A stretch of 64,000 bases of DNA, taken from the NCBI GenBank assembly GCA_963676835.2, contig CAXXFF010000002.1, forward strand, positions 992,001 through 1,056,000, in the 5' to 3' direction. Both the position numbers and the translations under genes were made by a program. Under the pieces are notes generated by a model, which made no database searches, was not told the origin of the DNA, and saw only the letters and a program-made list of their open reading frames with translations. Positions 38,749 through 58,147 of the stretch are shown here, in pieces (position 1 is the first letter of the stretch; each line of letters starts with the position of its first letter). This stretch comes from Marispirochaeta sp. (GTDB lineage: Bacteria; Spirochaetota; Spirochaetia; JC444; Marispirochaetaceae).

Positions 38749-39471
38749 TTACTTCTTTCTTGAACCAATATATTCAAGCCAGTAGGGAATCCCCCGGGAT
38801 GAGGCAAGTTTATGCATTTTTCTGAATCCCCTGCCGTAGTCTTTGTGCCGGTCTTTAAAGAAACCCTGCATAAGGTAGGCAGCTTCCGGTTCTTTCCTGG
38901 TTCTTAGAATCAGCCAGGCTGCAAGGTTGCAGCTTCCTTCCACCAGGGCCGGGGAGGCGTCGGTTATTCCCCTGCTGTAAAACCAGATATGCATAAGTTC
39001 ATGGGCGCAGGTAGAGATAAAGCTGACACGGGGGAGCCCGTTGAGCAGAAATATCTGCAGGTCAAACTGCCGAATTTTCCCGTTGAACAGGCTTCGCCTG
39101 AACCGTGCAGTTCCCTGTTTTTCTCTTCCTGTTCTGTCCAGGCGCTTAAGATCCAACCGGTCTATCAGGGCGAACCCGGGTTTGAAGGGCTTAATCACAA
39201 TACCCATCTTTTCAAGGCCGGTGTAGGTTTCCATAAGAATAGTCTTCCCTTCCGCTACATCCTTCACAGCTGCCTTATCGCAGAGAGCACAGATAGCCTG
39301 TCCGTCGCTCAATGTTTTTCCGCCCCCGGTGCTCTCTTTGCTGATAAAGCGTCCGCAATAGGGGCATGCCGGGGTTTGCCGGTAATGGGCGGCACATACG
39401 CTGTTACCCCAGTAATCCCGGTAGTATCTGCCTGTGATGGTATGATTGTTGTGAATGCAAACGGGGTTCAT
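38749..39471 (-). CDS. LIM-like zinc finger plus DA1-like zinc peptidase
   Basis: C..H, CAAH, CPYC, CALC ligands. LNGLP...AHELMH.W, EGSCN, YGRGFR. Confidence 0.75.
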   Translation of the reverse strand: MNPVCIHNNHTITGRYYRDYWGNSVCAAHYRQTPACPYCGRFISKESTGGGKTLSDGQAICALCDKAAVKDVAEGKTILMETYTGLEKMGIVIKPFKPGFALIDRLDLKRLDRTGREKQGTARFRRSLFNGKIRQFDLQIFLLNGLPRVSFISTCAHELMHIWFYSRGITDASPALVEGSCNLAAWLILRTRKEPEAAYLMQGFFKDRHKDYGRGFRKMHKLASSRGIPYWLEYIGSRKK

Positions 39472-39739
39472 GCTCTTTGAGAGTACAATAAATCATCTAT
39501 AATAGCGAATTCTCCTAATCCTAACTAAAAAACTAAAAAAACATTGACAACTGGAAAAACCACTGTTTAAATAGAAATATATCAATATATAAATACTTAA
39601 ATACACGAAAATTTTGGCTGGAAATGTAAAAAAAACGGGCGATTTTCTTTCGCTTTTGTTTTGCTGGAACTACGATTAAGGGTGCTTAACGCTCTGAAAA
39701 CTTGAGAATAGTCACTTTTTATATATATGGAGGATATGT

Positions 39740-40231
39740 GTGAAGGTTAAAACTGCCCTTGTTTCTGTTGTACTGGGGCTGCTTCTCTGGCTTGGCCTTA
39801 ATGGCAGGCTGGATCCGGCAATTCTTGCTGCCGGTGCCGTGGTGGTGCTGGTTACAGCGGCATTCCATGTCAACTCAGCGGTGTTTGGAGAGTTGAAACT
39901 GACACCAAAGGCGCTGTTTGCGCTTATTGCGTGGTTTATTGTTTTTATTACAGAACTCATCAAATCCAACATTGATGTGATGTTCCGGGTAATAACACCG
40001 GAAGTAAAAATCAATCCTGCCATTGTAGAGGTGAAAACCAGGCTTACCTCACCCCTGGGACGGCTTGTTCTGGCAAACTCAATTACCCTTACTCCCGGAA
40101 CCCTGACAGCGGACATTAAGAATGACAGCCTTTTTATCCACTGGATTGACGCATCTTCCACCGATGTAGAGGGAGCTACAAAGGCAATCGTCGCAAAGTT
40201 TGAAAAATATCTGGAGGTGGTCTTTGGCTGA
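39740..40231 (+). CDS. Mrp/Mbx subunit MnhE-like (MbxA)
   Basis: ELIKSNIDV, INPAIV, LANSITLTPGT, LFIHWID. Confidence 0.9.
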   Translation: MKVKTALVSVVLGLLLWLGLNGRLDPAILAAGAVVVLVTAAFHVNSAVFGELKLTPKALFALIAWFIVFITELIKSNIDVMFRVITPEVKINPAIVEVKTRLTSPLGRLVLANSITLTPGTLTADIKNDSLFIHWIDASSTDVEGATKAIVAKFEKYLEVVFG

Positions 40232-40484
40232 TCAAATACTTATGGCCGCGGTCCTGATCTCTCTGGTTAGTATCGGGATTATTCTTATCCGTTTTATTAT
40301 GGGGCCTTCTGTGCTGGACAGGGTGGTTGCCTTCGATACCGCCGGTATCATAGCTATCTCCCTGATCGTTCTATTGGCTCATATACTGGACCGCTTTATT
40401 TATGTAGATGTTGCCCTGGTTTACGGGCTCCTCAGTTTTATCGGTGTCCTGGTTGTTGCCAGGTATCATGAGAGGGGGCTGTAA
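40224..40484 (+). CDS. MnhF-like subunit (MbxB)
   Basis: RFIMGPSVLDRVVAFD, DVALVYGLLSFIG. TTG start after GGAGGTG. Confidence 0.88.
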   Translation: MADQILMAAVLISLVSIGIILIRFIMGPSVLDRVVAFDTAGIIAISLIVLLAHILDRFIYVDVALVYGLLSFIGVLVVARYHERGL

Positions 40485-40858
40485 TGGAGATGGCAGGTGC
40501 TGTTTTTGCTCTGATCGGGTCGATAATTTTCTTTTTCAGCGCTCTGGGGCTTATCCGTATGCCGGATTTATATAACCGGATACAGACAGGTACCAAGGCG
40601 ACAACCCTGGGAACCATAGTGTTGTCCATCGGAATCGCACTTCTTCATCCGGAATGGACCTGGAAACTGATCATTCTGATTCTCTTCATTGTCCTCACAA
40701 ACCCCATATCCTCCCATGTGGTTGCCCGGGGTGCCCACTACAGCGGACAGGAAATGACCGGGAAGACTGTAGCCGATGCGCTTTCAAAAGAGGAAGAAGA
40801 GGAAAAGAAAGAAAAGGAAAAGAAAGAAGAGAAAAAGAAAGAGGAGGTGAAGGGATGA
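40484..40858 (+). CDS. MnhG-like subunit (MbxC)
   Basis: GLIRMPDLYNRIQTGTKATTLG, TNPISSH. K/E-rich tail. Confidence 0.9.
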   Translation: MEMAGAVFALIGSIIFFFSALGLIRMPDLYNRIQTGTKATTLGTIVLSIGIALLHPEWTWKLIILILFIVLTNPISSHVVARGAHYSGQEMTGKTVADALSKEEEEEKKEKEKKEEKKKEEVKG

Positions 40859-41115
40859 CCATTGTTTTTGCAGTAGTGGCGCTCTTTACCCTTGGCACCG
40901 CTTTCTATGCTGTGGCAGTAAAGGACAGAATCGTTGCGGTGCTGTCCGCCGGGGCTTCCGGACTTTTTGCCTCTATCCTCTTCATCATGATGGCCGCCCC
41001 CGACGTGGCCATGACGGAAGCGGCCATAGGCAGCGGTCTTACCACCTTCATCTTTTTCTTTGCCCTTAGAAAAGTAAATGAAGGAAAGGTAAAAGGAGGG
41101 CAGAAAAATGGTTAG
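40855..41115 (+). CDS. DUF4040/MbhD-like subunit (MbxD)
   Basis: AAPDVAMTEAAIGSGL. ATGA overlap with the previous gene. Confidence 0.85.
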   Translation: MTIVFAVVALFTLGTAFYAVAVKDRIVAVLSAGASGLFASILFIMMAAPDVAMTEAAIGSGLTTFIFFFALRKVNEGKVKGGQKNG

Positions 41116-41815
41116 AAAAGGCTTTGTTCTTCTTATGATCATTGCCCTGGGCTTTATGCTCTGGGATTTTGCCGGGAACTATGCAGGTAAAGATTCCCTG
41201 CCTGAAGTTTCTGCTCACTATATAGAGAAGGGTCCCCGTGAGCTTGGTGCGGTTAATGTGGTGACTTCCGTGGTTGTCACTTACCGGGGACTGGATACCC
41301 TGGGTGAGGTTACCATTTTATTCGCCGCAGCTGCGGTGGTCGGCCTGCTGCTGCATCTGGGGGGCAATGAAAACCCCCGGCGGCGGGAAGCAAGCGAGCT
41401 TCTGAAAACCGGAAGTGCCCTGTTGTTCCCTCTTATTCTGCTTTTCGGTGTGTATGTTTTTATCAATGGTCACCTTACACCGGGAGGCGGGTTCCAGGGG
41501 GGCGCAATAATCGCTTCCGCGGTGGTGCTCTCTGTTCTGGCGGACCCCAATAAAAAAGCAGGACACACGGTCCTCTCTGTAATTGAGTCCCTTTCCGGAC
41601 TTGCCTACGTCGGTCTTGGTGCCGCCGGAGCCTTTCTGATGGTAAACGGCTTTCTGGATAACCGTCTTCTGCCCCTGGGCGAATATGGATCGCTTGTCAG
41701 TGCCGGACTTATTCCGGTCATTTACTGCCTCGTAGGGCTGAAGGTCGGCTCGGAACTCAGTTCTGTGGTTATCGGATTTAAAGGTGAGTCGGCAGACAAA
41801 GGAGGTGCAGAATAA
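41108..41815 (+). CDS. MnhB-like subunit (MbhE+F-type)
   Basis: NVVTSVVVTYRGLDTLGE, GHLTPGGGFQGG, GLKVG. Confidence 0.9.
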   Translation: MVRKGFVLLMIIALGFMLWDFAGNYAGKDSLPEVSAHYIEKGPRELGAVNVVTSVVVTYRGLDTLGEVTILFAAAAVVGLLLHLGGNENPRRREASELLKTGSALLFPLILLFGVYVFINGHLTPGGGFQGGAIIASAVVLSVLADPNKKAGHTVLSVIESLSGLAYVGLGAAGAFLMVNGFLDNRLLPLGEYGSLVSAGLIPVIYCLVGLKVGSELSSVVIGFKGESADKGGAE

Positions 41816-42165
41816 TGATTGGCACCATCGCAATTTCCACCGGTTCCCTGCTGATTCTCATCGGACTCTGGTGTCTTCTGTCCAATAAAGACATGATCCG
41901 CATGATTGTCGGATTCTCCATCTTTGATCTGGGTGTACACGTTGTCATGCTCAGCATCGGGTATATCAATGGAGGAACCGCCCCGATTATCGAAAGCCTT
42001 TCTGATACCGGTACGACCTATGTAGATCCGGTACCCCAGGCTCTGGTGCTTACCGCTATTGTAATCGGCCTGGGCATTACCGCATTTATGCTTACCTATG
42101 CGGTAAACATGTACGAAAAGAAAGGCAGCCTCCATATCGACAAATATGAGGAGTTAAAATGGTAA
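41815..42165 (+). CDS. MnhC-like subunit (MbxG)
   Basis: APII, DPVPQALVLTAIVIG. Confidence 0.92.
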   Translation: MIGTIAISTGSLLILIGLWCLLSNKDMIRMIVGFSIFDLGVHVVMLSIGYINGGTAPIIESLSDTGTTYVDPVPQALVLTAIVIGLGITAFMLTYAVNMYEKKGSLHIDKYEELKW

Positions 42166-45100
42166 ACCCCATCTATCTTATTGTCATTGCCCTGGGTACC
42201 GCCTTTCTCCTCGGGCTCTTCAGAAAAGCGGCGCCCTCTCTACGCTCAGGAATTACCCTGCTGGCCCTTGCGGGTATGACGGCGGTCTCCGCGGCCTGGG
42301 CCTATGGAATACTCTTTGCCGGTGCAGAAGGCATCCAGGTATTCACCGCCGGATTCAAGCCGCCCCTCTCCATTAATCTTTATATGGGCAGAGCCGAAGC
42401 GGTGCTCCTGGTACTGGTAAACCTTACGGCATTCTTCAGCATGCTGTTCCTGGCAAAAGAGGTGAAGAGCACCTCAAGCTATATGCTCATGCTGCTGATG
42501 GTTTTTGTAACCGGACTCAACGGCGTGGTTATGACCCGGGACCTCTTTAACCTTTTTGTGTTTATCGAGATTGTCAGTATTGCTTCCGCCGGTCTGATCC
42601 CCTTAAAGGGCAGCCTGAAACAGCTCAGTGCGGGTTTCAAGTTCGTTATCGCCGGCGCCCTTGCCAGCGGTTTTATGCTCATCGGCATAATTTTTGTCTA
42701 CTACTCCACAGGCTCCCTCAACCTGGATGTAATCGCTTCCGGTATGACCCCCGCTCTGGCATCCGCCGGCTTCGTGGGGATTTTCCTGGTCTTTATCGGG
42801 GTTGTGATGGAGCTCAAACCCTTCCCGGTTAACGGCTGGGGTCTGGATGTCTACGAAGCATCTCTTCCTCCGGTAGCAGCCCTTGTAGCCGCGGGAACCG
42901 CCAGCGTCATGTTCTATGCCTTTACCAAGGTTATGGCCCTTACCGGCGGACTCCTCATCGGAGCCGCGGTTGTTATCGGTGCTCTTACCTTTGTGGGAAT
43001 GAACGTGCTGGCTCTAAAGCAGGATAAAGCACAGCGGCTTCTTGGCTATTCCTCCATCAGTCAGATGGGCCTGCTTCTTATGGCCTATGGTCTGCTGCGT
43101 CAGACAGGAAGCGAAAATGCCGAGCTGATTGTCTTCGGCCTGCTTATTACCCACGCCCTGGCCAAGGCTGCCCTCTTCTGGCTCGCCGGGATTGTGGAAA
43201 AAGAGAATATAAAAGAGTGGGCCATTATCCGTAAGAACCCCCTGGCTCTTATAGCCATGATTATGGCGGTATTCGGCCTTACCGCCTTTCCGCCCTTTCC
43301 CTCCTTCTTTGCCAAGTGGGAGCTGGTAATGGCACTGGCAGCCAAAGGGGGCTTCGGTTTTATAACAGTGATTCTGGTAGGGTCCTTTCTGGAAGCGGTC
43401 TATCTATTCCGCTGGCTGGGATACGCCCTGAAGCTGGACTTTAATCCTGGGGAAGAGGCCAACACCTCTGCTCTGTCCGCCCTGCCTTCACTGCTCTTCG
43501 GCCTGACTCTTGTCGGGCTGGGGTACCTGATGGGTACAGACTACGGTCTTTCCTGGATACCTCTGGCTGCGGTTTTAGGCTTTCTGGTTATCGATAAGAT
43601 TGACTCAAGAATCAAAACCACTCTTGCTCTGGTAATAATCGGCGCCTGGGGCTATCTGAACTACGAAAGCTACCTGGGGGATCTGTTCAAGACAATTTTT
43701 GCCGGGGTTTTTATCGGCGGAGCATTTCTTACTACTCTATCAGGCTACTATTACAAAGGGCGCAGGGGGGGATTCCACGCCTCCACAATGTCCATGTTCT
43801 TCGGCCTCTTTATGCTGCTCTCTGCGGAAACCATGCTTCAGTTTTTCTACGGTTGGGAGTTTATGGCCATCGGTTCCTACTTCCTGCTTATCCGGGGAAA
43901 GAAATCCATGCCCCACGGCTACAGCTACCTCATGTTCAGCATCGGCGGTTCCTTCGCCATGCTCATGGGCTTCGCCATGGCCTATCTCTCCAGCGGTTCT
44001 GCCGGCATGGATGCCCTGTTTCATATCACCGTGTATCCCGCAGTGGCCTACTCCCTGATGCTCATCGGCTTTATGACCAAGACCGCCACCATGGGATTTC
44101 ATACCTGGCTTCCCGGAGCCCACGGCGAGGCGGTTGCGGATATTCACTTCATGGCTTCAGCTATTCTGCTTAAGGCAGGAGTTCTGGGAATGATCTATGT
44201 ACTGTTGGGTATGGATCTCTCCATGTCCTACAGCCGCTGGATACTCATGACCATGGGCTGGCTGGGAATATTGAGCTCCCTCATCGGCAACGTCAACGCC
44301 GCCTTCCAGGAGAGCGCCAAGCGGCTTCTGGCCTGGTCCAGTATCGGACAGCTCGGGTACATTGTGTTCGGCCTCTCCACCATGAGCCATATGGGATGGC
44401 TGATCGCTCTCTCTCTTTCCATTACCCACTTCCTGTACAAGGGTATTCTCTTTCTGATAATCGGTGGAATCTCACTGAAGCTCGGAACCCCCATGATGTA
44501 CAAGATGGGCGGCCTGATCCGGCGCATGCCCTTCAGCTTCCTTGCGGTGCTGATTGCCATTATTACTCTTTCCGGTATCCCCCCACTTGTGGGATTTACC
44601 GCCAAGTGGATTCTCTACAATGTAACCGTGGGTAACGGTCTCTATTTTCAGGGCGTTATCGCCTCTTTCGCAGGCCTTGTGGCATTCCTCTACCTGTTCC
44701 GTCTGATTTTCTCAATCTTTCTGGGACAGCTGAAGGACGAGCATCGCAAGGTCGGGGAGATCAATATCTGGTTCCTGATCCCTGTGTATCTGCTTATCTG
44801 CTACATCATGGTTGTCTCCTTCCTGCCGGGTACTCTTCTCGGACCCATCGGGGACAAGCTTATGGCCTTCTTCCCGGATAATCCCATTATCTGGACCGGC
44901 TATCTGGCCAGTTCCGAGTTGGGCTACTTCAACGGCACCATGATTATGAATGTCTTTATGACCCTGTTTGCCATCAACTTTCTTATTCTCTTTTTCTTCA
45001 ATAAAAAGCGGGCCCAGAAGGTTGAACAGTTCAATATTGTCTACGCCGCCGAGAGGCCGGCACGGCCGGAAACAACCCACTTTGCCTATAACTTCTTTGC

Positions 45101-45290
45101 CCCTTACAGAAGGGCCGTCGGGGTACTGGAGTATCCCTTTGTGACAAAGTTCTGGAACGGCCTGAGTGATATTCTGCATGCCCTTGGAGGCTTATTCCGC
45201 AGGGTATACACCGGCAACGGCCAGACCTATCTGCTGCAGATGGTGGTTTTTGTTGTGGTCACCTACCTGCTGACCAAAGGAGGAATGTAA
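42159..45290 (+). CDS. Fused double antiporter-like subunit (MnhD/NuoL-M-N family; MbxH+H')
   Basis: Two proton-antiporter modules (DLFNLFVFIEI...LLGYSSISQMG and FFYGWEFM...RLLAWSSIGQLG) plus a lateral-helix-like C-terminus (YTGNGQTY). Confidence 0.88.
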   Translation: MVNPIYLIVIALGTAFLLGLFRKAAPSLRSGITLLALAGMTAVSAAWAYGILFAGAEGIQVFTAGFKPPLSINLYMGRAEAVLLVLVNLTAFFSMLFLAKEVKSTSSYMLMLLMVFVTGLNGVVMTRDLFNLFVFIEIVSIASAGLIPLKGSLKQLSAGFKFVIAGALASGFMLIGIIFVYYSTGSLNLDVIASGMTPALASAGFVGIFLVFIGVVMELKPFPVNGWGLDVYEASLPPVAALVAAGTASVMFYAFTKVMALTGGLLIGAAVVIGALTFVGMNVLALKQDKAQRLLGYSSISQMGLLLMAYGLLRQTGSENAELIVFGLLITHALAKAALFWLAGIVEKENIKEWAIIRKNPLALIAMIMAVFGLTAFPPFPSFFAKWELVMALAAKGGFGFITVILVGSFLEAVYLFRWLGYALKLDFNPGEEANTSALSALPSLLFGLTLVGLGYLMGTDYGLSWIPLAAVLGFLVIDKIDSRIKTTLALVIIGAWGYLNYESYLGDLFKTIFAGVFIGGAFLTTLSGYYYKGRRGGFHASTMSMFFGLFMLLSAETMLQFFYGWEFMAIGSYFLLIRGKKSMPHGYSYLMFSIGGSFAMLMGFAMAYLSSGSAGMDALFHITVYPAVAYSLMLIGFMTKTATMGFHTWLPGAHGEAVADIHFMASAILLKAGVLGMIYVLLGMDLSMSYSRWILMTMGWLGILSSLIGNVNAAFQESAKRLLAWSSIGQLGYIVFGLSTMSHMGWLIALSLSITHFLYKGILFLIIGGISLKLGTPMMYKMGGLIRRMPFSFLAVLIAIITLSGIPPLVGFTAKWILYNVTVGNGLYFQGVIASFAGLVAFLYLFRLIFSIFLGQLKDEHRKVGEINIWFLIPVYLLICYIMVVSFLPGTLLGPIGDKLMAFFPDNPIIWTGYLASSELGYFNGTMIMNVFMTLFAINFLILFFFNKKRAQKVEQFNIVYAAERPARPETTHFAYNFFAPYRRAVGVLEYPFVTKFWNGLSDILHALGGLFRRVYTGNGQTYLLQMVVFVVVTYLLTKGGM

Positions 45291-45291
45291 G

Positions 45292-46230
45292 ATGGAGTTT
45301 CAGTACATACACATACTCTATGCAGCCATAACCATCTTTATAACCATTAACTATGGTCTACTGCTGCAGGGAATAATCGGAAAGATTTATGCCCGGGTAG
45401 GCAAGCGGCGGGGAATCCGCATCTATCAGCCCTGGATCAATATTATCCGCCAGTGGGTAACCCGTTCATCAATTCACCACGGCATAATGTATTATCTGGG
45501 GCCGGTTTTCCGCTTTACCGGCGGAGGAGGAATCCTTATCTTCCTGCCCCTGGTCTACGGCGCTCCGTTGTTCTCTTCCTTTGTGGGAACCGGGGACCTG
45601 CTGCTGGTGCTCTACTTTATGTTCATCGGAACCCTGGGCATGGCCCTGGGCGGCGGTGAGGCGGGGCATCCCTATTCGGCCATCGCCGTAACCCGCGGAC
45701 TCTCCCAGGTAACCGCCGCGGAGGTACCGCTGGTACTGGCCATTTTCTCCATCTCAATCCAGTACGGAACCATGGATGTGATGAAGATTGTCGGAGCCCA
45801 GCAGGGAAGCTTTCTTAACTGGACCCTCTTTACCAACCCCCTGGCAACGGCGGCGGCAATGATCGCCTTTCTGGGATCCATGATGCGGAGCCCCTTTGAT
45901 GTGGTTCTTGCTCCCCAGGAAATTCCCATCGGACCTCCCACGGAGTATCAGTCCCAGTTTCTGGCCATGCTTATGACCAACCGTACTATCTTTCCCGTGG
46001 CCAAGACGGTGTTCTACGTGAACCTCTTTTTCGGCGGAGTTGCCCTCTATGACAATTATCTGCTGACCTTTCTGGTTTTCTTTCTCAAGACCTTCCTGGT
46101 CTATATGTGGTCCGTATTTGTGGGAGTCTCCTTTCCCCGCTTCCGGGTGGAGCAGAGTATCCGCTTCTTTCTTAAATGGCCCCTGCTCATCGGGGCGGCT
46201 GCGGTAATTGCGGCCCAGATAAGGTATTGA
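45292..46230 (+). CDS. NuoH-like membrane subunit (MbxM)
   Basis: ARVGKRRG...QP, PFDVVLAPQEIPIGPPTEY, PRFRVEQ. Confidence 0.9.
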   Translation: MEFQYIHILYAAITIFITINYGLLLQGIIGKIYARVGKRRGIRIYQPWINIIRQWVTRSSIHHGIMYYLGPVFRFTGGGGILIFLPLVYGAPLFSSFVGTGDLLLVLYFMFIGTLGMALGGGEAGHPYSAIAVTRGLSQVTAAEVPLVLAIFSISIQYGTMDVMKIVGAQQGSFLNWTLFTNPLATAAAMIAFLGSMMRSPFDVVLAPQEIPIGPPTEYQSQFLAMLMTNRTIFPVAKTVFYVNLFFGGVALYDNYLLTFLVFFLKTFLVYMWSVFVGVSFPRFRVEQSIRFFLKWPLLIGAAAVIAAQIRY

Positions 46231-46232
46231 TT

Positions 46233-46898
46233 ATGGCAAAGATGAATTACAGCAAACGAAAAGCCGATCTGGAGCGGCGGACCGTCACCGGACCGGAGGG
46301 TGAGGTATTCGAAGTTGATCCCATGAAGGATTACTTCTGCGAGGCTCCTCCAAAGGTCTATAAGCCCTCCAAACTGACCCCCCTGGAAAAGTTCTACAAC
46401 TGGTGCCGGGCGGAGTCCATCTATATTCTCGGCTTTGGAACCGGCTGCGGCGCAATTGAGATGCGCCCCCTTATGAGCCCCATGTATGACGCCTACCGTT
46501 ACGGCGTTCACTGGCGGCCCACCCCCAGGCAATCCACGGTATTTGTCATCGGCGGATACGCCTCGGTAAAAACCATCAAGCGGATTGTCCGCAGCTACGA
46601 ACAGATGCCCGGGCCCAAGTATGTTCTGGCGGTCTGCAGCTGCACCATTAATGGCGGCATGTACTGGGATTCCTACAACACCATCAACCGGCTGGATCAT
46701 TATATTCCGGTGGATATCTATGTTACCGGCTGCATGCCCCGGCCGGAGGCAATTCTCGATTCTGTAGAGGCCCTCAAGAAACGAATTAAAGAAGGACGGG
46801 CGGAAGGGCAGAACAAGTATGCGGAAAACTTCGAATGGTACAAGGCAAACCAGAAACAGATTATCAAGGACTGGGATATGCCGGACTACAACTGGTAA
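46233..46898 (+). CDS. NuoB-like Fe-S subunit (MbxJ)
   Basis: GTGCGAIE, TPRQS, YEQMPGPKYV, SCTINGG, PVDIYVTGCMPRPE. Confidence 0.9.
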   Translation: MAKMNYSKRKADLERRTVTGPEGEVFEVDPMKDYFCEAPPKVYKPSKLTPLEKFYNWCRAESIYILGFGTGCGAIEMRPLMSPMYDAYRYGVHWRPTPRQSTVFVIGGYASVKTIKRIVRSYEQMPGPKYVLAVCSCTINGGMYWDSYNTINRLDHYIPVDIYVTGCMPRPEAILDSVEALKKRIKEGRAEGQNKYAENFEWYKANQKQIIKDWDMPDYNW

Positions 46899-46910
46899 GG
46901 AGGTTAATGG

Positions 46911-47471
46911 ATGGAAACGATTATTGAAAATATCAAGAAACAGTTCAGCCTGTCCGACGTCACCTCCGCCCACGGGTACTTTATTACCTGTGAAAAGAAG
47001 GATGCCGTCAGTCTGCTGACTTACCTGAAAAACGTGGAAGGCTTTAAACACCTGGTGCTGATAACCGCGGTGGACTGGATCGAAGACGGACGCTTTCAGC
47101 TGACCTATCTGCTGAATAATCCGGTAATGAAGAAGGAGCTGGGGGTCCGGACATTTATCGAACGGAGTGTCTGGCCGGAAGAATCCGAAATGGATACCGC
47201 CCACCATCTCTGGCCGGCTGCCAAGACCTACCAGCGGGAGCTGCATGAAATGTTCGGTATCGATTTTCCCGGCAGTCCCGAGATCAATGAACCCCTGATT
47301 CTTGAATACTGGGATGATATTCCTCCCTACAGAAAGGACTTCGATACGAAGAAATACTCTGAAGAGACCTACTTTCCCCGGGAGGGCAGAAGCACCAATG
47401 ATCCTGCTGAGTACATGAAAGCTAAGCTCTATCCCCGGGAGGGGGAGAAGACAAAAAAGGGGGATGCCTAG
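46911..47471 (+). CDS. NuoC-like subunit (MbxK)
   Basis: ITAVDW, YQRELHEMFGIDFPG, PP.RKDF. Confidence 0.9.
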   Translation: METIIENIKKQFSLSDVTSAHGYFITCEKKDAVSLLTYLKNVEGFKHLVLITAVDWIEDGRFQLTYLLNNPVMKKELGVRTFIERSVWPEESEMDTAHHLWPAAKTYQRELHEMFGIDFPGSPEINEPLILEYWDDIPPYRKDFDTKKYSEETYFPREGRSTNDPAEYMKAKLYPREGEKTKKGDA

Positions 47472-47557
47472 CATGGGACCCTTTTTTAGTCGAATAGCGG
47501 TAGAGTGTTTTCCGCATCAGCGGAAAAGTACTCGAGAGCGATATAAGGAAAAGAAAG

Positions 47558-48739
47558 ATGCTTGATTACGGCGAAAAGAACCGGGAACTCTTCCCCGAAA
47601 CGAAGAGCGACGGCACCATCGATATAGATCTCTCTTCCGGAAAGTTCACCAAGCTCTGGCATGGACCCAACCATCCGGGAATTACCGGAAATATGTCCCT
47701 GGAGCTGACCCTGTTAGGTGATGAGATTATGGAGTCCAAAACCCATGTGGGCTATCTGCACCGGGGGTTTGAGAAGCTGATGGAGCGGCGCCGCTTTATC
47801 AACAACTTCCCCTTGGTCTGCCGGGTATGTGTACCGGAGCCGGACTTCAATGAGTACTGCTATGCCGCGGCCCTTGAAGAGCTTGCCGGGGTTGAGGTCC
47901 CGGAGAAAGCCCTGTGGATCCGCACCCTGATTCTGGAAATGGCCCGGCTGCAGTCATATTTAATGTGGATCGGCGGACAGGCCGGTGCCTTCGGTATGGG
48001 CATGGTTGGACAGTGGACCTTATGGGCCCGAGACCGGGTACTGCAGATGTTTGAGGAACTCACCGGCGGACGCATCTATCATATCTTTATTCTCCCTGGC
48101 GGTGTGCGCAACAATCTTACCGAAGGCTTCAAGGGCCGGATGCTGGAGACCCTCAATGACGTGGTTTCCATACTCAACGATGTGGAACGGGTTCTCTTCA
48201 ACAACGCGGTGTTTAAAAAACGTGCCGTAGGCCTCGGGGTGATTGATCCCGACTGGGTGGATGAGTACGGCATAACCGGCCCCAACGCCCGGGCGGCGGG
48301 TGTCCCGAAGGACGTGAGAAAAGACAACCCTTACGTAAAATATGCGGAGCTCGATTTTGAGCCGGTAACCGGCACGGACTCGGATGTCTATACCCGGGCC
48401 CGGGTCCGCTTTGATGACTGCCTGATGACCGTGGATCTTATCCGTCAGATTCTGGACAGGATCCCGGAAAAAGGTGAGTTCAAGGCAAAGATGCCCAGTA
48501 TGCTCCACTGGAAAATCCCCGCCGGCGAAACCTATAAAAAAGCGGAATGTACCCGTGGTGAGTACGGCTACTACATTGTAACCGACGGCTCCGGTTATCC
48601 CCGCAGGGTCAATGTCCGTGGGCCTTCATACACCCATGCGGTAACCCTGGCAGAAAAGATGCTGGTCAACGCAAACCTTGCGGATGTGGCGGGTACCCTG
48701 GTATCCCTGCATACCTATCCGCCGGAAGTGGAGAGATAA
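47558..48739 (+). CDS. NuoD-like subunit (MbxL), lacking the NiFe-binding motifs
   Basis: GPNHP, GYLHRGFEK, RVCVPEPD, E.TRGE, R.RGPS. C-terminus SLHTYPPEVER has no CxxC. Confidence 0.9.
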   Translation: MLDYGEKNRELFPETKSDGTIDIDLSSGKFTKLWHGPNHPGITGNMSLELTLLGDEIMESKTHVGYLHRGFEKLMERRRFINNFPLVCRVCVPEPDFNEYCYAAALEELAGVEVPEKALWIRTLILEMARLQSYLMWIGGQAGAFGMGMVGQWTLWARDRVLQMFEELTGGRIYHIFILPGGVRNNLTEGFKGRMLETLNDVVSILNDVERVLFNNAVFKKRAVGLGVIDPDWVDEYGITGPNARAAGVPKDVRKDNPYVKYAELDFEPVTGTDSDVYTRARVRFDDCLMTVDLIRQILDRIPEKGEFKAKMPSMLHWKIPAGETYKKAECTRGEYGYYIVTDGSGYPRRVNVRGPSYTHAVTLAEKMLVNANLADVAGTLVSLHTYPPEVER

Positions 48740-48740
48740 G

Positions 48741-50597
48741 ATGGGAAGTTCACCAAAATTCAGTTTCAAAGATGTTCTCTACCCCTTTACGGTCTGGAAG
48801 AACATTCTCAAAGAGCCGGTAACCCTTAAGCACCCGGAAAAACGGGAGGGATCCGACCGCTACCGGGGCTTTCATACCAACGATATCACCAAGTGCATTG
48901 GCTGCGGCACCTGCGAGGAAATCTGCCAGAATGCCGCCATCGACCTGGTCCCCTGTGAGGGAGTCGAAGCAAAGCCGGGAGATTCCGGCCTGCGTCCCCG
49001 GGTGGACTACGGCCGCTGCTGCTGGTGTGCCCTCTGTGTTGATGTCTGTACAACCAACTCCCTCGGAATGTCCAACAACTTCCGCTGGGCTGTAGAAGGC
49101 GAGAATCAGGGAGAGGGCAATGAAGCCAACGGCACTCCCGATGACTACCGCTTTATAATCGGTGCGGAGGAGAAGTCCTGGGATAGCGCGGAAAAGGGCT
49201 ATAAAAAGCCTGAGGATTACGATCTGACTCCTCCCGAGCGGGTTGCCATGGATCATCTCTCCGTGGATGAACGGGCTGACTCCTTTATCGAAATGATGAA
49301 GGGCTATTCGAAGGAACAGGCCCTGAAAGAGGCAGACCGCTGCGTTGAGTGCGGTCTCTGCACGGCCACCTGTCCCGCCCACATGGGAATCCCTGCCTAT
49401 ATAAAGGCCATCCGGGAGGATGATCTCGAAGAAGGTTTAAGAATTCTCTATGAAACCAACCCCCTGCCGGAGGTCTGCGGCCGTATCTGTACCCACAAAT
49501 GCGAGACCGTCTGTTCCATCGGTCATAAGGGCGATCCCCTTTCAATCCGCTGGCTCAAGCGCTACATCGCCGACAATGTACCGGCGGAAAAGTACAAGGA
49601 GATTCTTGGAACCTCAAAGCTTGCCAAAAACGGCATGAAGGTGGCGATTGTAGGATCCGGTCCTTCCGGCCTGTCCGCTGCCCACTATCTCTCCCTGATG
49701 GGCTATCAGGTAACCATTTTCGAAGCCCTGCCGGAAGCAGGCGGAATGATGCGCTATGGAATACCGGAATACCGGCTTCCCTATGATCAGATCGACAAGG
49801 ATATAAACTATATTGTCTCTCTGGGCGTGGAGATCCGTACCAACTGCAAAGTCGGTAAAGAGGTTTCCCTTGAGGATCTGCACCGTGATTATGACGCTGT
49901 CTTTGCGGGCACCGGTCTGCATCTGGGCCGCTCCACCCGGCTGGAAAACTCGGACCATAAAAAGGTGCTTCAGTCTATCGACCTGCTGCGGAAAATCAGT
50001 CTGGGAGAAGAGGTTCCCGTACCGGAAAAGATCGTGGTAATCGGCGGCGGAAACGTAGCCATGGATATTACCCGCTCTCTGGCCCGCTTCCAGCGGCAGA
50101 AATACGGCAAGGTGAATATTGTCACCACCTGTCTTGAGCCCGCCGACGGCATGCTGGCAGATGACGAAGAGGTTGAAGAGGCCCAGGAGGAGGGAGCTAT
50201 GATTACCCCCGCCTACGGCCCCCAGCGGATAGAGATTATCGATGAGGAGAATGTAAAAGGGCTCCATGTTGCCAAGTGTCTGGCCATCTTCGATGAGGAG
50301 AAACGCTTTAACCCCTCCTTCGACCTGAATGATACCCGCTTCTATGAGGCGGACATGATTGTTGAGTCCATCGGACAGGCCTCGGATATTACCTACATTC
50401 CCGAGCAGGTAATGAACGATCTGGAACTCAGCCCCCGCCGTCAGGTTGTGGCCGATCCGGACTGGCAGGTAAAGGGTGTGCCCTGGCTCTTTGTGGGAGG
50501 CGACATTGCCAAAGGCCCGGATGTTATTACAGGAATTTCCACCGGCCATCTGGCGGCAGTAGGAATTGACCGTTATCTTCAGGAGGGTAAAAAATGA
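48741..50597 (+). CDS. NuoI-like 2x[4Fe-4S] domain fused to a GltD/SudA-like FAD/NAD(P) oxidoreductase
   Basis: YRGFH...CIGCGTCEEIC, CCWCALCVDVC, then EADRCVECGLC...CP, CGRIC...C, GSGPSG, YGIPEYRL, GGGNVAMD. Confidence 0.9.
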   Translation: MGSSPKFSFKDVLYPFTVWKNILKEPVTLKHPEKREGSDRYRGFHTNDITKCIGCGTCEEICQNAAIDLVPCEGVEAKPGDSGLRPRVDYGRCCWCALCVDVCTTNSLGMSNNFRWAVEGENQGEGNEANGTPDDYRFIIGAEEKSWDSAEKGYKKPEDYDLTPPERVAMDHLSVDERADSFIEMMKGYSKEQALKEADRCVECGLCTATCPAHMGIPAYIKAIREDDLEEGLRILYETNPLPEVCGRICTHKCETVCSIGHKGDPLSIRWLKRYIADNVPAEKYKEILGTSKLAKNGMKVAIVGSGPSGLSAAHYLSLMGYQVTIFEALPEAGGMMRYGIPEYRLPYDQIDKDINYIVSLGVEIRTNCKVGKEVSLEDLHRDYDAVFAGTGLHLGRSTRLENSDHKKVLQSIDLLRKISLGEEVPVPEKIVVIGGGNVAMDITRSLARFQRQKYGKVNIVTTCLEPADGMLADDEEVEEAQEEGAMITPAYGPQRIEIIDEENVKGLHVAKCLAIFDEEKRFNPSFDLNDTRFYEADMIVESIGQASDITYIPEQVMNDLELSPRRQVVADPDWQVKGVPWLFVGGDIAKGPDVITGISTGHLAAVGIDRYLQEGKK

Positions 50598-51034
50598 GCG
50601 AAGTACAAATTTCCGATATTCTTAAATACTCCATAAAAATTGAACACGAAAGCATGCTCTTTTATCAGGATGCTGCTCCCGGAGCACAAGGAGAAGAGGT
50701 TAAGACTCTGCTTACTGAACTGGCAGATGAAGAGGTAAAGCATGAAGCACGTCTGAGTAAACTGCTGGATGAGCTCGAAGACGGCGCTGCTGCCGGCTTT
50801 GATCACAACTCCATGAAGAAGCTGATCCAGACCAGTGAGATTCCTTCGGGCGCTGACGAAGAGGCTGTACTGACAGTTGCCCTGGAGCGGGAGGTGAACA
50901 CCAGGGATTTCTACGGGCAGGTTTCCACCCTGACTAACCTCGATGCCAATGTTGTTGATGTCTTTGATATGCTCTACAAACAGGAATCGGGACATGTTTT
51001 AAGAATTTCAGGACTGCTGAAAAAGCTGTCCTGA
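50594..51034 (+). CDS. Ferritin-like (rubrerythrin diiron domain) protein
   Basis: E...FY, EEVKH, E...FY, QESGH diiron pattern. No rubredoxin domain. Confidence 0.85.
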   Translation: MSEVQISDILKYSIKIEHESMLFYQDAAPGAQGEEVKTLLTELADEEVKHEARLSKLLDELEDGAAAGFDHNSMKKLIQTSEIPSGADEEAVLTVALEREVNTRDFYGQVSTLTNLDANVVDVFDMLYKQESGHVLRISGLLKKLS

Positions 51035-51054
51035 TAGTCAGTTTTCTTCCACTG

Positions 51055-51091
51055 AAAGAGCTTTCGTACAGACATGCGGAAGCTCTTTTTT
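51055..51091 (+). terminator. Intrinsic terminator of the Mbx-like operon
   Basis: Stem AAAGAGCTTTCGTA...TGCGGAAGCTCTTT followed by a T run. Confidence 0.8.
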
Positions 51092-52950: not shown

Positions 52951-54906
52951 TTACTTCTCAATCCGGTTTCTTCCCCGGTTTTTGGCAACATAGAGAAGTT
53001 CATCCGCCCTGCTTACCATTTTAGACGAGCTTTCTCCCAGATTCTCAGCAACGCCGCCGCTGATGGTTATTTTCCTGTTGGTATCAAATTCCCAGGTAAC
53101 TTTAGAAACCAGCTCCCGCAGTCTGTCTGCAAGATCATATGCTTCTTTCAATCCTGTTTCCGGAAGCACAACAAGAAATTCTTCTCCTCCGTACCTGCCG
53201 ATAATGTCGGTTTCTCTCAGGTTGTTTTTAATAACCTCCACAGTTTTCAACAGGACAAGGTCGCCAATCTGGTGCCCGTAACAGTCATTTACACTTTTAA
53301 AAAAGTCGATATCAAATAAAATGATGGAGAGACTGTTGTTATATCGGGTACTTCTCTTCACTTCTTCTTCGAGATACCCGCTGATGTACTTCTTGTTGAA
53401 AATCATGGTCAGGCCGTCTCTTATTGAGATATACCTCAGGGATTCCAGGGCCTTTTCTGCAATTGCTTCTTTCTCTTTCAGCCGCTCCGTCATGACATTA
53501 AAATAGTTGGTGACATCTCCCATTTCCGAGCCTATGTCTGATTCCAGTTTCTGTATCCCGTCTACTTTACTGTTTTCGATGATTTGTCTCATTGAGTTTG
53601 AAAGTTCAATGACGCTGGAGCATGACCCGTGTTCCGCGATATTCAAGCCGATCTTCTCATGCTCCGGCGAGACCCTGACCGGTATGAATCTTTTTATTCC
53701 CGCAAGGATAAGAAATGAAAGTCCAAATCCCCAGACAAAGCAGGTAATGACTCCGATACCCTGAATGCCGATCAGTTCGAGTCTGGTGTGGCTGAGTTCG
53801 GTAAGGATGCTGTTTTTTATAAAGACTCCGGTGGCAATGGTACCCCATACACCGGCAAAAGCGTGAACAGGAACAGCGGAAACAACATCATCAATACCTG
53901 CTTTTTCAAGCAGGTTCGTACCGTAGTAGACAATCAAACCGGCGACGATTCCGATTACCAGGGATGCGCCGGAGGGAACATAGGCACATCCTGCGGTGAT
54001 GGCAACCAGCCCTGCAATCACCCCGTTGATGATCATCTCCGGTTCCGGAAGCCTGCTTTTACCCATGGACATGCTTAAAAACATGGAGGTTATTCCCCCG
54101 AAGGAGGCTGCAATAATAGTATTCAGTACAATCTGTGCAACCCCGGGATCTGCTTCCAGAGAACTTCCGCCGTTAAAGCCGAACCAGGCGAAAAAGAGAA
54201 TAAAGGTACCCAGATAGGCAAATACAATATTGTGCCCCTGAATTTTCTGGGGAGTACCATCGGCAGCAAATCTACCCGTACGGGGACCGATTACAATCGC
54301 GCCGGCCAGGCCCACCCAGCCGCCGATGGAATGCACAACGCTTGATCCTGCAAAATCGAGAAAGCCCAGATTCTGCAGCCAGCCGGCCTGGTTTTCGTAG
54401 AAGAGTCCCCCCCAGGCCCAGTGGCCGAAAATAGGATAAATAAGCGCTGATGTAATAAAGGACATTATCAGATAGGTACTGAATTTTGCCCGCTCCGCCA
54501 CAACTCCGGAATCGATGGTTGCCGCGGTACCTACAAAAACAGCCTGAAAAGTAAAAAAGGTTGCTTTCCAGCTGTCATCATTAAAGGAGGTGAAAAAATC
54601 AGAAATACCCACAAGGCCGAGAAAAGATCTGCCGAACATCAGTCCGTACCCGATAAACCAGAAGGCGGCAATGGAGAAGATAAAGTCCGTAAGGTTTTTG
54701 ATGGCGACATTTATTGAGTTCTTCGCTCGTGAAAGTCCTGTTTCCAGGGCCATGAATCCTGCCTGCATAAGGAACACCAGCATTGCGGAGACTAGAACCC
54801 AGAGGATGTCGTCAAGAGATTTGCCGTTTGAAATACCTTCTGTAATTCCCTGGGAAAAGAGCGGATTCAGTAAAAGCAGCAGTGCGGGAACAAGGAGGTA
54901 TCGCAT
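52951..54906 (-). CDS. amt: Ammonium transporter (Amt) fused to a GGDEF domain
   Basis: FLMQAGF..LE, DFAGSSVVH, WFGFNGGS, GLVAITAG, DDVV..VPVH. C-terminal RETD...RYGGEEF. Confidence 0.92.
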   Translation of the reverse strand: MRYLLVPALLLLLNPLFSQGITEGISNGKSLDDILWVLVSAMLVFLMQAGFMALETGLSRAKNSINVAIKNLTDFIFSIAAFWFIGYGLMFGRSFLGLVGISDFFTSFNDDSWKATFFTFQAVFVGTAATIDSGVVAERAKFSTYLIMSFITSALIYPIFGHWAWGGLFYENQAGWLQNLGFLDFAGSSVVHSIGGWVGLAGAIVIGPRTGRFAADGTPQKIQGHNIVFAYLGTFILFFAWFGFNGGSSLEADPGVAQIVLNTIIAASFGGITSMFLSMSMGKSRLPEPEMIINGVIAGLVAITAGCAYVPSGASLVIGIVAGLIVYYGTNLLEKAGIDDVVSAVPVHAFAGVWGTIATGVFIKNSILTELSHTRLELIGIQGIGVITCFVWGFGLSFLILAGIKRFIPVRVSPEHEKIGLNIAEHGSCSSVIELSNSMRQIIENSKVDGIQKLESDIGSEMGDVTNYFNVMTERLKEKEAIAEKALESLRYISIRDGLTMIFNKKYISGYLEEEVKRSTRYNNSLSIILFDIDFFKSVNDCYGHQIGDLVLLKTVEVIKNNLRETDIIGRYGGEEFLVVLPETGLKEAYDLADRLRELVSKVTWEFDTNRKITISGGVAENLGESSSKMVSRADELLYVAKNRGRNRIEK

Positions 54907-56061: not shown

Positions 56062-56994
56062 TTATTCAGTATTAAACACGGTGCAGCAGTTTCTGCCGTT
56101 TTTTTTCGATTCGTACAGACCCAGATCTGCCCGTTTAATAAAAGTCTCAATACTGTCGTTAGCATTCATCTGGGTAATACCGAAACTGGCGGTAATACGA
56201 AGGTTTTTAAGAATATCGGATTTTTCAATTAATATACGAAGTCTGTCCGCTACCTTCCGTGCGTCTATTGCCTGGGTGTACTGAAGGACAATGATGAATT
56301 CCTCTCCGCCGTATCGTACAAAACAATTTTCGCCGCGTATTGATTCGCTGATAATTTTAGATACCCTCACTAACACAATATCACCGTAATCATGGCCGAA
56401 ATTGTCATTAACTCGTTTGAAGTAATCAATGTCCAGCATAATGAGACTCAGGGGAAGCTTTTTTCTTTTGGCCAGAGGCATAGCCTGTGATAGATGCTCA
56501 ACCAGAAAGCGTCTGTTGAATACACCTGTAAGGTCATCTTTTCTGGTTAGTTCAGCGATTTTTTTATTGGCTTTCTCCAGCTGTGCATTCTTTTTGCCAA
56601 GTTCTCTGAGGAGGTTATTTGTATCGTTTGCAATACTGCTGAACGACGAAAGTGCATCTGTTTCTTCTGCATTCACCAGCTCTGATGCAATAATAATTTT
56701 CTGATCTATTTGTGCAGCTACAATTTTAAATTTTCTACAGTCTGGTTTGATGGGAACGTCATACATGGACAGGATGCGGCCGGTTTTCAGGTTACCCATA
56801 AATTCAGTTTTGTCGATCTCAAGGTAGGCGAAAATATCCGTATTGTTCAAATTGCTATTGTGAACGATTTGTTTAAAATATTTATTGGAACAGAGGATCT
56901 TAAAATCAACATCACATACACAATAGGCTACCAGGTTCAGGTTGTTGAATAATTCGATCAGTCCGCCTTGGGTCTGGCAGAATATACTATTCAT
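56062..56994 (-). CDS. Diguanylate cyclase (PAS-like, coiled coil, GGDEF)
   Basis: DDLTGVFNRR, DIDYFKRVND, RYGGEEF. ATG56994 overlaps the 3' end of the upstream gene. Confidence 0.88.
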   Translation of the reverse strand: MNSIFCQTQGGLIELFNNLNLVAYCVCDVDFKILCSNKYFKQIVHNSNLNNTDIFAYLEIDKTEFMGNLKTGRILSMYDVPIKPDCRKFKIVAAQIDQKIIIASELVNAEETDALSSFSSIANDTNNLLRELGKKNAQLEKANKKIAELTRKDDLTGVFNRRFLVEHLSQAMPLAKRKKLPLSLIMLDIDYFKRVNDNFGHDYGDIVLVRVSKIISESIRGENCFVRYGGEEFIIVLQYTQAIDARKVADRLRILIEKSDILKNLRITASFGITQMNANDSIETFIKRADLGLYESKKNGRNCCTVFNTE

Positions 56995-58078: not shown

Positions 58079-58147
58079 GGACGCGTTCCAGCTTTCTATT
58101 ATAGGTGATGGATCATGAGAAATCAAAAATTCTGCAGGTGTAAGATT

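What the first reader, a model, noticed from the sequence alone, without database searches (positions are those of the whole stretch)
39740..51091. Complete Mrp-Mbx/Mbs-like ion-pumping complex with a built-in NAD(P)H module and ferritin-like partner
Seen: 13 co-oriented genes ending at one terminator, in the order MnhE, F, G, DUF4040, B, C, H+H', NuoH, B, C, D, NuoI-GltD, ferritin-like. There is no NiFe site and no NuoEFG or NuoA. Known: the order matches Thermococcales Mbs (ferredoxin-driven sulfane sulfur reductase), and Thermotogae have an Mbx cluster with a GltD-like gene whose reaction is not established. Inference: a complex I relative that exchanges electrons with NAD(P)H through the fused flavin domain and couples an unknown reaction at the NuoB/D pocket to Na+/H+ translocation. 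This is the strongest candidate for an undescribed system here.
Basis: partly seen in the sequence, partly recalled or inferred. Interest (0 to 1): 0.82.

Follow-up and report, generated by a model that had tools for sequence, protein, structure and literature searches.

The report
NADH-linked bacterial Mbx/MBS-type ion pump
Thirteen intact neighbouring genes encode a membrane complex related to the archaeal sulfur-respiring enzyme MBS, with a flavoprotein built on that likely lets it burn NADH to cut polysulfide while moving ions; the design is widespread in bacteria and was described in 2015, but its chemistry appears untested.

Summary
In detail: 13 intact + strand genes (39740-51034) in MBS order, ending at a terminator. 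It is not an undescribed system. A 2015 paper already describes the 'mbx-like' operon with a GltD-type subunit and a terminal rubrerythrin (PMC4758237). The NuoI-GltD fusion is in 74 of 80 related genome loci, the other six ending at a contig edge. This scan noted it eight times before on other DNA. The NuoD-like subunit groups with Thermococcales MBS (99/95). The MBS-type three-cysteine cluster motif is kept, and the quinone residues and NiFe ligands are absent. The flavin domain has CLE where NfnB has YRR, and Lys for NfnB's Glu ligand, which points to a non-bifurcating NAD(H) port rather than NADP(H). Best reading (about 0.5): NADH:polysulfide oxidoreductase with weak ion coupling. Substrate, direction and pumping are untested. 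The ferritin-like gene keeps all six diiron ligands and is fused to the flavoprotein in some relatives. New member of a known, uncharacterised kind.

The parts
39740..40231 (+). MbsA / MnhE-like subunit, 163 aa
   Evidence: PF01899 E 1e-34; 45% to the MBS-type locus L088
40224..40484 (+). MbsB / MrpF-like subunit, about 86 aa (likely TTG start after GGAGG)
   Evidence: PF04066; start read from sequence
40484..40858 (+). MbsC / MnhG-like subunit; the MBS helix-break proline motif is kept
   Evidence: PF03334, NF009314 above cut-off; alignment
40855..41115 (+). MbsD / MbhD (DUF4040) subunit; conserved Glu motif kept
   Evidence: PF13244; alignment
41108..41815 (+). MbsE (MbhE + MnhB) subunit, 235 aa
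   Evidence: PF20501 + PF04039
41815..42165 (+). MbsG / MnhC-like subunit; Asp at the place of MBS's Glu
   Evidence: PF00420; alignment
42159..45290 (+). Fused MbsH + MbsH' antiporter-like subunit, 1043 aa. H' keeps Glu567, Lys641, Lys672, Lys816. H keeps Glu137, Glu218, Lys386 but lacks the helix-8 Lys (MbsH K250) and has an extra Lys220
   Evidence: Best PDB hits 6u8y_H and 6u8y_X; conservation in 59 homologs
45292..46230 (+). MbsM / NuoH membrane anchor; keeps equivalents of MbsM D196, E203, E211, lacks E104 and E193, has invariant Glu144
   Evidence: 6u8y_M the only PDB hit at E<1e-15; 67 homologs
46233..46898 (+). MbsJ / NuoB, 221 aa: three canonical cluster cysteines (C72, C137, C167), Gly69 in place of MbsJ C25, and an extra Cys135 found only in the nearest relatives
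   Evidence: 6u8y_J best hit; three Cys 72 of 72, no Cys at the C25 position 72 of 72, extra Cys 10 of 72
46911..47471 (+). MbsK / NuoC, 186 aa
   Evidence: PF00329
47558..48739 (+). MbsL / NuoD, 393 aa: no NiFe motifs; Thr43 and Val92 where complex I has the quinone-binding His38 and Tyr87; C91 kept, C385 equivalent is Tyr387
   Evidence: 6u8y_L best hit, 325 bits against 200 for Nqo4; Thr and Val 80 of 80; tree
48741..50597 (+). MbsN-GltD fusion, 618 aa: two ferredoxin-type [4Fe-4S] motifs, then a GltD/NfnB/StnC-type FAD domain with two more clusters; Lys273 at NfnB's Glu ligand; C464-L465-E466 at NfnB's YRR
   Evidence: PRK13984 846 bits, cut-off 946; PDB alignments; Lys 71 of 71, Glu 71 of 71
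50594..51034 (+). Ferritin-like (rubrerythrin family) diiron protein, 146 aa, no cysteines and so no rubredoxin domain; E17, E47, H50, E100, E131, H134 intact
   Evidence: PF02915; all six invariant in 52 of 52 aligned relatives
51054..51091 (+). Intrinsic terminator-like hairpin with U run
   Evidence: -19.5 kcal/mol, z -5.2, 0 of 200 shuffles fold as well

Best explanation
This operon encodes a bacterial MBS-type (mbx-like) membrane complex that likely oxidises NADH at its fused flavin domain and uses the electrons to cut polysulfide at an open iron of the NuoB cluster, with a predicted small ion gradient as the gain. Shown: gene content, fusion, MBS kinship and the residue patterns. Inferred steps: (1) NADH gives a hydride to FAD in the GltD domain (CLE for YRR means no 2'-phosphate pocket); the Lys-type cluster marks a plain, non-bifurcating port. 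(2) Electrons run through the two GltD clusters and the two NuoI clusters to the NuoB cluster. (3) That cluster, with three cysteine ligands as in MBS, reduces an internal S-S bond in the NuoB/NuoD/NuoH chamber. (4) Turnover drives the H/H' subunits, and the Mrp module swaps H+ for Na+. The drop from NADH to polysulfide is only about 12 kJ/mol per two electrons (from recalled potentials of -320 and -260 mV), against 41 for ferredoxin-fed MBS. So at most about one ion per turnover is expected and the reaction should be reversible. The ferritin-like protein is likely an accessory that takes electrons from the flavin to remove peroxide, or supplies iron to the labile site.
For: NuoD-like subunit in one clade with Thermococcales MBS, 99/95, apart from Nuo, Fpo and NiFe group 4 (anchor L088 matches 6u8y_L at 813 bits). 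6U8Y chains are the best solved relatives of NuoD, NuoB, H/H' and NuoH. MBS catalysis needs the three-Cys cluster and not C25, C85 or C385 (PMC7684303), so the residues lost here are the dispensable ones. Quinone His/Tyr absent in 80 of 80 relatives. YRR marks NADP(H) and its loss NAD(H) in the related DsrL enzymes (PMC7596348); Glu for Arg in 71 of 71, while the genome's own NfnB keeps YRR. Lys at this place belongs to the non-bifurcating StnC port (PMC10482914). T. maritima mbxA rises 4.36-fold with sulfur (PMC9431562). The host carries a YeeE, rhodanese and CoA-disulfide-reductase-like cluster elsewhere, plus FeFe hydrogenases, RnfC and NfnAB, the make-up of a fermenter that could use a sulfur electron sink.
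Against: No biochemistry of a GltD-fused complex turned up in nine literature searches. The only published functional reading for this architecture is the opposite one, NAD(P)+ reduction. The driving force is small for a complex with two antiporter-like domains. The window's NuoB has an extra Cys135 two residues before a ligand (10 of 72 relatives) that might close the open iron site. No sulfur gene lies next to this operon; among 108 related loci only 3 have a persulfide-reductase-like neighbour and 9 an ArsR regulator that scores far below the BigR cut-off. The clade is distant from MBS (NuoD 41% identical to L088), and many hosts are proteobacteria, which by general knowledge make quinones.
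Confidence: 0.5

Rival explanations
1. The same chemistry runs backwards in the cell: ion inflow drives oxidation of sulfide or short polysulfides at the NuoB cluster and reduction of NAD+, giving NADH cheaply.
For: The near-equilibrium energetics allow it (recalled potentials). Many of the 80 loci come from groups known as sulfur oxidisers, such as Thiohalocapsa, Sedimenticola, Chromatiaceae and Magnetovibrio (titles; physiology recalled). The Riftia symbiont's Mrp-Mbx genes are co-expressed with the rTCA cycle. AvDsrL-1A, a related flavoprotein, is biased to NAD+ reduction.
Against: This host looks like a fermenter with NADH to spare. The Riftia paper lists the direction as unknown. Co-expression shows neither substrate nor direction.
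Confidence: 0.15
2. It is a ferredoxin:NAD(P)+ oxidoreductase, as proposed in 2015: reduced ferredoxin feeds the NuoI clusters and the flavin domain reduces NAD+, with ion pumping.
For: Stated in PMC4758237. GltD-type domains work both ways. Ferredoxin could still reach the NuoI clusters.
Against: The proposal rests on the older view of Pyrococcus Mbx, since replaced by sulfane reduction. Electrons going from NuoI to a flavin fused to NuoI would bypass the NuoB/D/H site where coupling starts, yet that site is the most conserved part. The genome already has RnfC.
Confidence: 0.12
3. It is an alternative NADH:quinone oxidoreductase, the GltD domain standing in for NuoEFG and (mena)quinone entering the chamber.
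For: The MBS chamber opening is as wide as complex I's. The genome has no other complex I core and has a MenA-like prenyltransferase, below cut-off. The drop to menaquinone would easily power two pumps (recalled).
Against: His38 and Tyr87 equivalents are missing in 80 of 80 and the tandem cysteines in 72 of 72. MenB is below cut-off and MqnA/D is not found in a 97% complete genome. The tree puts it away from Nuo and Fpo.
Confidence: 0.13
4. The main job is oxidant removal or iron handling: NADH reduces the diiron protein through the flavin domain, and the membrane arm is secondary.
For: A rubrerythrin-family gene follows directly in 56 of 68 loci scanned, all six ligands are invariant, and the domain is fused to the flavoprotein in L120.
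Against: Eight Bacteroidales-type loci have a dihydroorotate-dehydrogenase-like gene there instead, and many wider loci have nothing. The fused tail of L105 has lost most ligands. It does not explain the conserved NuoB/D/H pocket.
Confidence: 0.07

Closest known systems
[quoted passage not shown]
   Same: Whole Mrp set plus NuoH/B/C/D, a GltD-related flavoprotein at the NuoI position, and a terminal rubrerythrin. Magnetococcus mbxL is 70% identical to the NuoD-like protein.
   Different: The flavoprotein is fused to NuoI, not substituted for it. The cofactor signature is NAD(H) here. H and H' are one chain. PRK13984 score is 846, under the 946 cut-off. The paper's proposed function differs from the reading here.
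[quoted passage not shown]
   Same: Gene order and subunit set, three-Cys NuoB cluster motif, no NiFe site, no quinone His/Tyr, same NuoD clade.
   Different: MBS has a free MbsN fed by ferredoxin, separate H and H', and no ferritin-like gene among the BLAST hits of the MBS-type loci. The window lacks MbsJ C25, MbsL C385, MbsH K250 and MbsM E104/E193, and has an extra NuoB Cys.
StnC / NfnABC-type GltD domain (PDB 8OH5, 9N5U) and NfnB (5JCA, 4YLF)
   Same: FAD plus two [4Fe-4S] fold, the flavin Arg, and Lys at the cluster as in StnC.
   Different: No YRR phosphate pocket, no NfnA or StnAB partner in the operon; it is wired to a membrane arm instead.
Respiratory complex I (Nuo) and Fpo
   Same: Homologous NuoB, C, D, H, I, K and antiporter-like subunits; a pyridine-nucleotide input module on the NuoI end.
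   Different: No NuoA or NuoEFG, a full Mrp Na+ module, no tandem cysteines, no His38/Tyr87, separate clade.

Membership tests
mbx-like operon (PMC4758237) | Complete Mrp antiporter set followed by NuoH, B, C, D | tested here: met
mbx-like operon (PMC4758237) | GltD-related flavoprotein at the NuoI position | tested here: met
   one ORF in 74 of 80 related loci
mbx-like operon (PMC4758237) | Often ends with rubrerythrin | tested here: met
   PF02915; 56 of 68 relatives
NCBIfam PRK13984 equivalog | Score at or above 946 bits | tested here: not met
   846 bits, full length, by far the best family
MBS (P. furiosus) | Subunits A-N in MBS order with two antiporter-like subunits | tested here: met
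   (H and H' fused)
MBS (P. furiosus) | NuoD-like subunit in the MbsL clade | tested here: met
   25-row clade, 99/95; order of branches inside unresolved
MBS (P. furiosus) | No NiFe site, no quinone His38/Tyr87 | tested here: met
MBS (P. furiosus) | Proximal [4Fe-4S] with three Cys and one open iron | tested here: inconclusive
   Three canonical Cys and no C25 equivalent fit; the extra Cys135 has unknown geometry
MBS (P. furiosus) | Free MbsN taking electrons from ferredoxin | tested here: not met
   N is fused to a GltD domain
MBS (P. furiosus) | Charged axis residues of MbsH (E138, E219, K250, H330, K393) | tested here: not met
   Three of five kept; K250 absent in 59 of 59 fused homologs, present in 6 of 6 MBS-type loci
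MBS (P. furiosus) | Polysulfide reduction and ion pumping | not testable with these tools
   needs purified enzyme or vesicles
Complex I (Nuo) | NuoA, NuoEFG, tandem Cys in NuoB, His38/Tyr87 in NuoD | tested here: not met
Group 4 [NiFe] hydrogenase (Mbh, Hyc) | Two CxxC motifs in the large subunit | tested here: not met
   one of four cysteines; separate clade
NfnAB bifurcating transhydrogenase | NfnA partner, Glu-ligated cluster, YRR motif | tested here: not met
   Lys and CLE instead; the genome's NfnAB lies elsewhere

The most novel reading that the evidence does not exclude
A reversible, near-equilibrium NAD(H):polysulfide ion pump. It conserves energy from NADH in fermenters such as this host, and run backwards it gives sulfur-oxidising bacteria NADH straight from sulfide at the cost of about one ion, bypassing quinones and complex I. 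Lineages have swapped its cofactor pocket between NAD and NADP, and a dedicated diiron protein guards or reloads the open iron.
Probability: 0.22. Interest if true: 0.75.

Novelty: new member of a known kind. Interest (0 to 1): 0.33.

Why it matters
As a locus it is ordinary: one of very many copies of a design described in 2015. The family still matters because no assay of it was found. If it couples NADH and polysulfide to ion movement, it is a respiratory chain in one enzyme for quinone-poor anaerobes and possibly an overlooked reverse-electron route in sulfur oxidisers. The residue map makes the question testable: NAD versus NADP types within one genus, a non-bifurcating port, an MBS-type open iron, and an altered pump subunit.

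Tried and rejected
(1) Idea that the helix-8 Lys of H is lost whenever GltD is fused, as an adjustment to low driving force: it fit the first sets but failed in the wider sample, where 6 of 17 GltD-fused loci keep the Lys. It is a lineage trait. (2) Extra NuoB cysteine as a family feature: only 10 of 72 relatives have it. (3) Nfn-type bifurcation: rejected on Lys for Glu and no NfnA in the operon; the flavin Arg is kept but StnC has it too. (4) Sulfur genes beside the operon: none in the window, few in relatives. (5) Expression: no RNA holder listed, which says nothing either way. (6) Whether the ferritin-like protein binds the flavin domain was not modelled and stays open. (7) The first tree of 123 rows did not finish; 69 rows were used for the quick tree and 40 chosen rows for the careful tree. 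No named Thermotoga, Mbh or Ehr sequence was in either tree. (8) The 2018 MBS characterisation paper was not held. Searches returned nothing; others returned one paper each. Subscription reviews may hold more on this family.
Full report
Observation. The region holds 13 intact genes on the + strand from 39740 to 51034. Pfam and NCBIfam assign them, in order, to MnhE, MrpF, MnhG, MbhD, MbhE/MnhB, MnhC, a 1043-residue protein with two antiporter-like domains, NuoH, NuoB, NuoC, NuoD, a ferredoxin-plus-GltD fusion and a rubrerythrin-family protein. A hairpin with a U run follows at about 51054-51091 (z -5.2, 0 of 200 shuffles). The flanking genes are signalling proteins and a divergent DA1-like gene. 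The nearest named homologs are from Spirochaetales. The genome has a separate Mrp operon and no second NuoB, C, D or H copy.

It is widespread. A scan of species genomes found 299 stretches encoding a relative of the NuoD-like protein and kept the best 80. In 74 of the 80, NuoI and GltD lie in one reading frame; the other six end at a contig edge. Hosts include spirochaetes, Bacteroidales, Deltaproteobacteria and many Proteobacteria. In a phylum sample, 27 of 301 genomes matched at E<=1e-60. I fetched 20 of the 29 places outside the own genome, all from the top-scoring group, and all 20 had the fusion. The gene after the fusion was rubrerythrin-like in 56 of 68 proteins scanned, dihydroorotate-dehydrogenase-like in 8, and something else in 4.

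It is described. [quoted passage not shown] PMC9431562 (passages) reports a 13-subunit T. maritima MBX whose mbxA rises 4.36-fold with sulfur, and assumes ferredoxin as donor. PMC11636981 (passages) names a putative Mrp-Mbx in Riftia symbionts, co-expressed with the rTCA cycle, direction unknown. Nine searches showed no biochemical study of a GltD-fused complex; the library lacks most subscription journals. Passages of PMC8165549, PMC6349859 and bioRxiv 10.1101/536078 added nothing on this fusion. This scan's earlier notes list eight similar findings in other genomes; I had reached the paper and the NAD motif before reading them.

Kinship. The best solved relatives of NuoD, NuoB, H/H' and NuoH are chains of P. 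furiosus MBS. For an anchor I fetched ten metagenome loci by an MbsL motif; L088 matches 6u8y_L at 813 bits. In a careful tree of 40 chosen NuoD-like rows the window falls in a 25-row clade with four MBS-type rows (99/95), apart from E. coli NuoD, FpoD and NiFe-motif proteins. Inside that clade the order is open, and GltD-fused lineages sit in two of its branches, so MBS may have lost the flavin domain or others gained it.

The reaction pocket. In MBS the proximal cluster has three cysteines and its open iron is the catalyst; MbsJ C25 and MbsL C85/C385 are dispensable, and the quinone residues His38 and Tyr87 are absent (PMC7684303, parts 1-4 of 7 of the text read). The window's NuoB keeps the three cysteines (72 of 72 relatives) and has no cysteine at the C25 place (72 of 72). 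NuoD has Thr and Val for His38 and Tyr87 (80 of 80) and Tyr for C385 (79 of 80). One caveat: an extra cysteine two residues before the second ligand occurs in the window and in 10 of 72 relatives. Its geometry is unknown and it might cap the iron.

The flavin domain. It aligns with NfnA of NfnABC, NfnB and StnC. Where NfnB has Tyr-Arg-Arg it has Cys-Leu-Glu; the Glu is invariant in 71 of 71 close relatives. In DsrL, YRR goes with NADP(H) and its replacement with NAD(H) (PMC7596348, passages), so NAD(H) is inferred. The genome's own NfnB keeps YRR. The family has both types: 7 of 28 wider spirochaete loci carry YRR, two of them in the window's own genus. At NfnB's cluster-ligating Glu the domain has Lys in 71 of 71, as in StnC, whose FAD does not bifurcate (PMC10482914, passages).

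The membrane arm. H' keeps its Glu and three Lys; H keeps Glu137, Glu218 and Lys386 but lacks the helix-8 Lys of MbsH in 59 of 59 fused homologs and has an invariant Lys220 instead. Six of six MBS-type loci keep that Lys. The loss does not track the fusion: 6 of 17 other GltD-fused loci keep it. NuoH keeps three of MBS's five acidic residues and adds an invariant Glu144. The small Mrp subunits are 41-47% identical to their MBS-type counterparts. Ion translocation is therefore likely but its stoichiometry cannot be read off.

The ferritin-like gene. All six diiron ligands (pattern recalled) and two tyrosines are invariant in 52 of 52 aligned relatives, and the window's protein has no cysteine. 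In L120 the domain is fused to the end of the NuoI-GltD chain (PF02915 E 4e-8; profile probability 98%). L105 has a degenerate tail of the same kind (93%); a similar tail in L107 had no Pfam hit. This links it to the flavoprotein by gene fusion. Physical binding was not modelled, and many loci lack the gene.

Host context. The genome (97% complete) has RnfC, NfnAB, GltD, six FeFe-hydrogenase-like matches, and a cluster of YeeE, rhodaneses and a CoA-disulfide-reductase-like protein scoring below cut-off. MenB is below cut-off and MqnA/D is not found, but a MenA-like gene is present. The one molybdopterin enzyme found is DmsA-like, not a polysulfide reductase. This fits a fermenter that handles sulfane sulfur and leaves a scavenged menaquinone possible.

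Mechanism and verdict. The best reading is NADH to FAD to four [4Fe-4S] clusters to an open-iron cluster that cleaves polysulfide, coupled to ion movement (0.5). From recalled potentials the drop is about 12 kJ/mol per two electrons, the same as the MBS paper gives for MBH and far below its 41 for MBS, so low stoichiometry and reversibility are expected. Rivals are reverse operation (0.15), quinone reduction (0.13), ferredoxin:NAD+ (0.12) and oxidant removal (0.07). It works like MBS by inference but is not filed as MBS, because the ferredoxin-entry feature and one pump residue set were tested and not met. It is a new member of the described mbx-like kind. Interest 0.33.

Noticed in passing
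L017:13153-14133 and L018, L025, L038, L044, L052, L059, L062: In these Bacteroidales-type loci the gene after the NuoI-GltD fusion is a PRK07565 dihydroorotate-dehydrogenase-like protein instead of the ferritin-like gene. GltD plus an FMN barrel recalls the PreT/PreA layout (recalled).
   Followed up: partly
L101, L102 (G001, G004), L103, L104, L115-L117: The same operon with a YRR (NADP-type) flavin domain; two are in the window's own genus with NuoD only 63-65% identical, so cofactor types differ within a genus.
   Followed up: partly
L120:10458-12746, L105:4202-6439, L107:3061-5349: NuoI-GltD chains of about 750 aa with a C-terminal tail that is ferritin-like in L120, degenerate in L105 and unassigned in L107.
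   Followed up: partly
L014, L101, L102, L104, L106, L108, L118, L124, L132: An ArsR-family regulator with cysteines lies beside the operon in 9 of 108 loci; in the three scanned, BigR is the best specific family but at 50-56 bits against a cut-off of 155.
   Followed up: partly
G035 (L105, L106); G047 (L126, L132); G180 (L118, L127): Some spirochaete-phylum genomes carry two different copies of the complex from separate branches.
   Followed up: no
window 39544-39572: A perfect TTGACA with a 4-of-6 second hexamer 17 bases on, about 170 bases before the first gene; not listed by the promoter scan.
   Followed up: no
window 47475-47557: The one large gap in the operon folds into a hairpin without a U run (z -2.2, 6 of 200 shuffles); perhaps a processing or stabilising element, perhaps chance.
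   Followed up: partly
window 52951-54906 (-): Ammonium transporter fused to a GGDEF domain.
   Followed up: no
window 38749-39471 (-): Divergent gene with a DA1-like zinc-peptidase domain and Cys-rich motifs, a family better known from plants (plant link recalled).
   Followed up: no
window 56062-58126 (-): A B12-binding protein next to a GGDEF protein.
   Followed up: no
L111:5044-10202 (G000:C2 about 159-164 kb): YeeE-type transporter, CoA-disulfide-reductase-rhodanese protein and two multi-rhodanese proteins in one cluster.
   Followed up: partly
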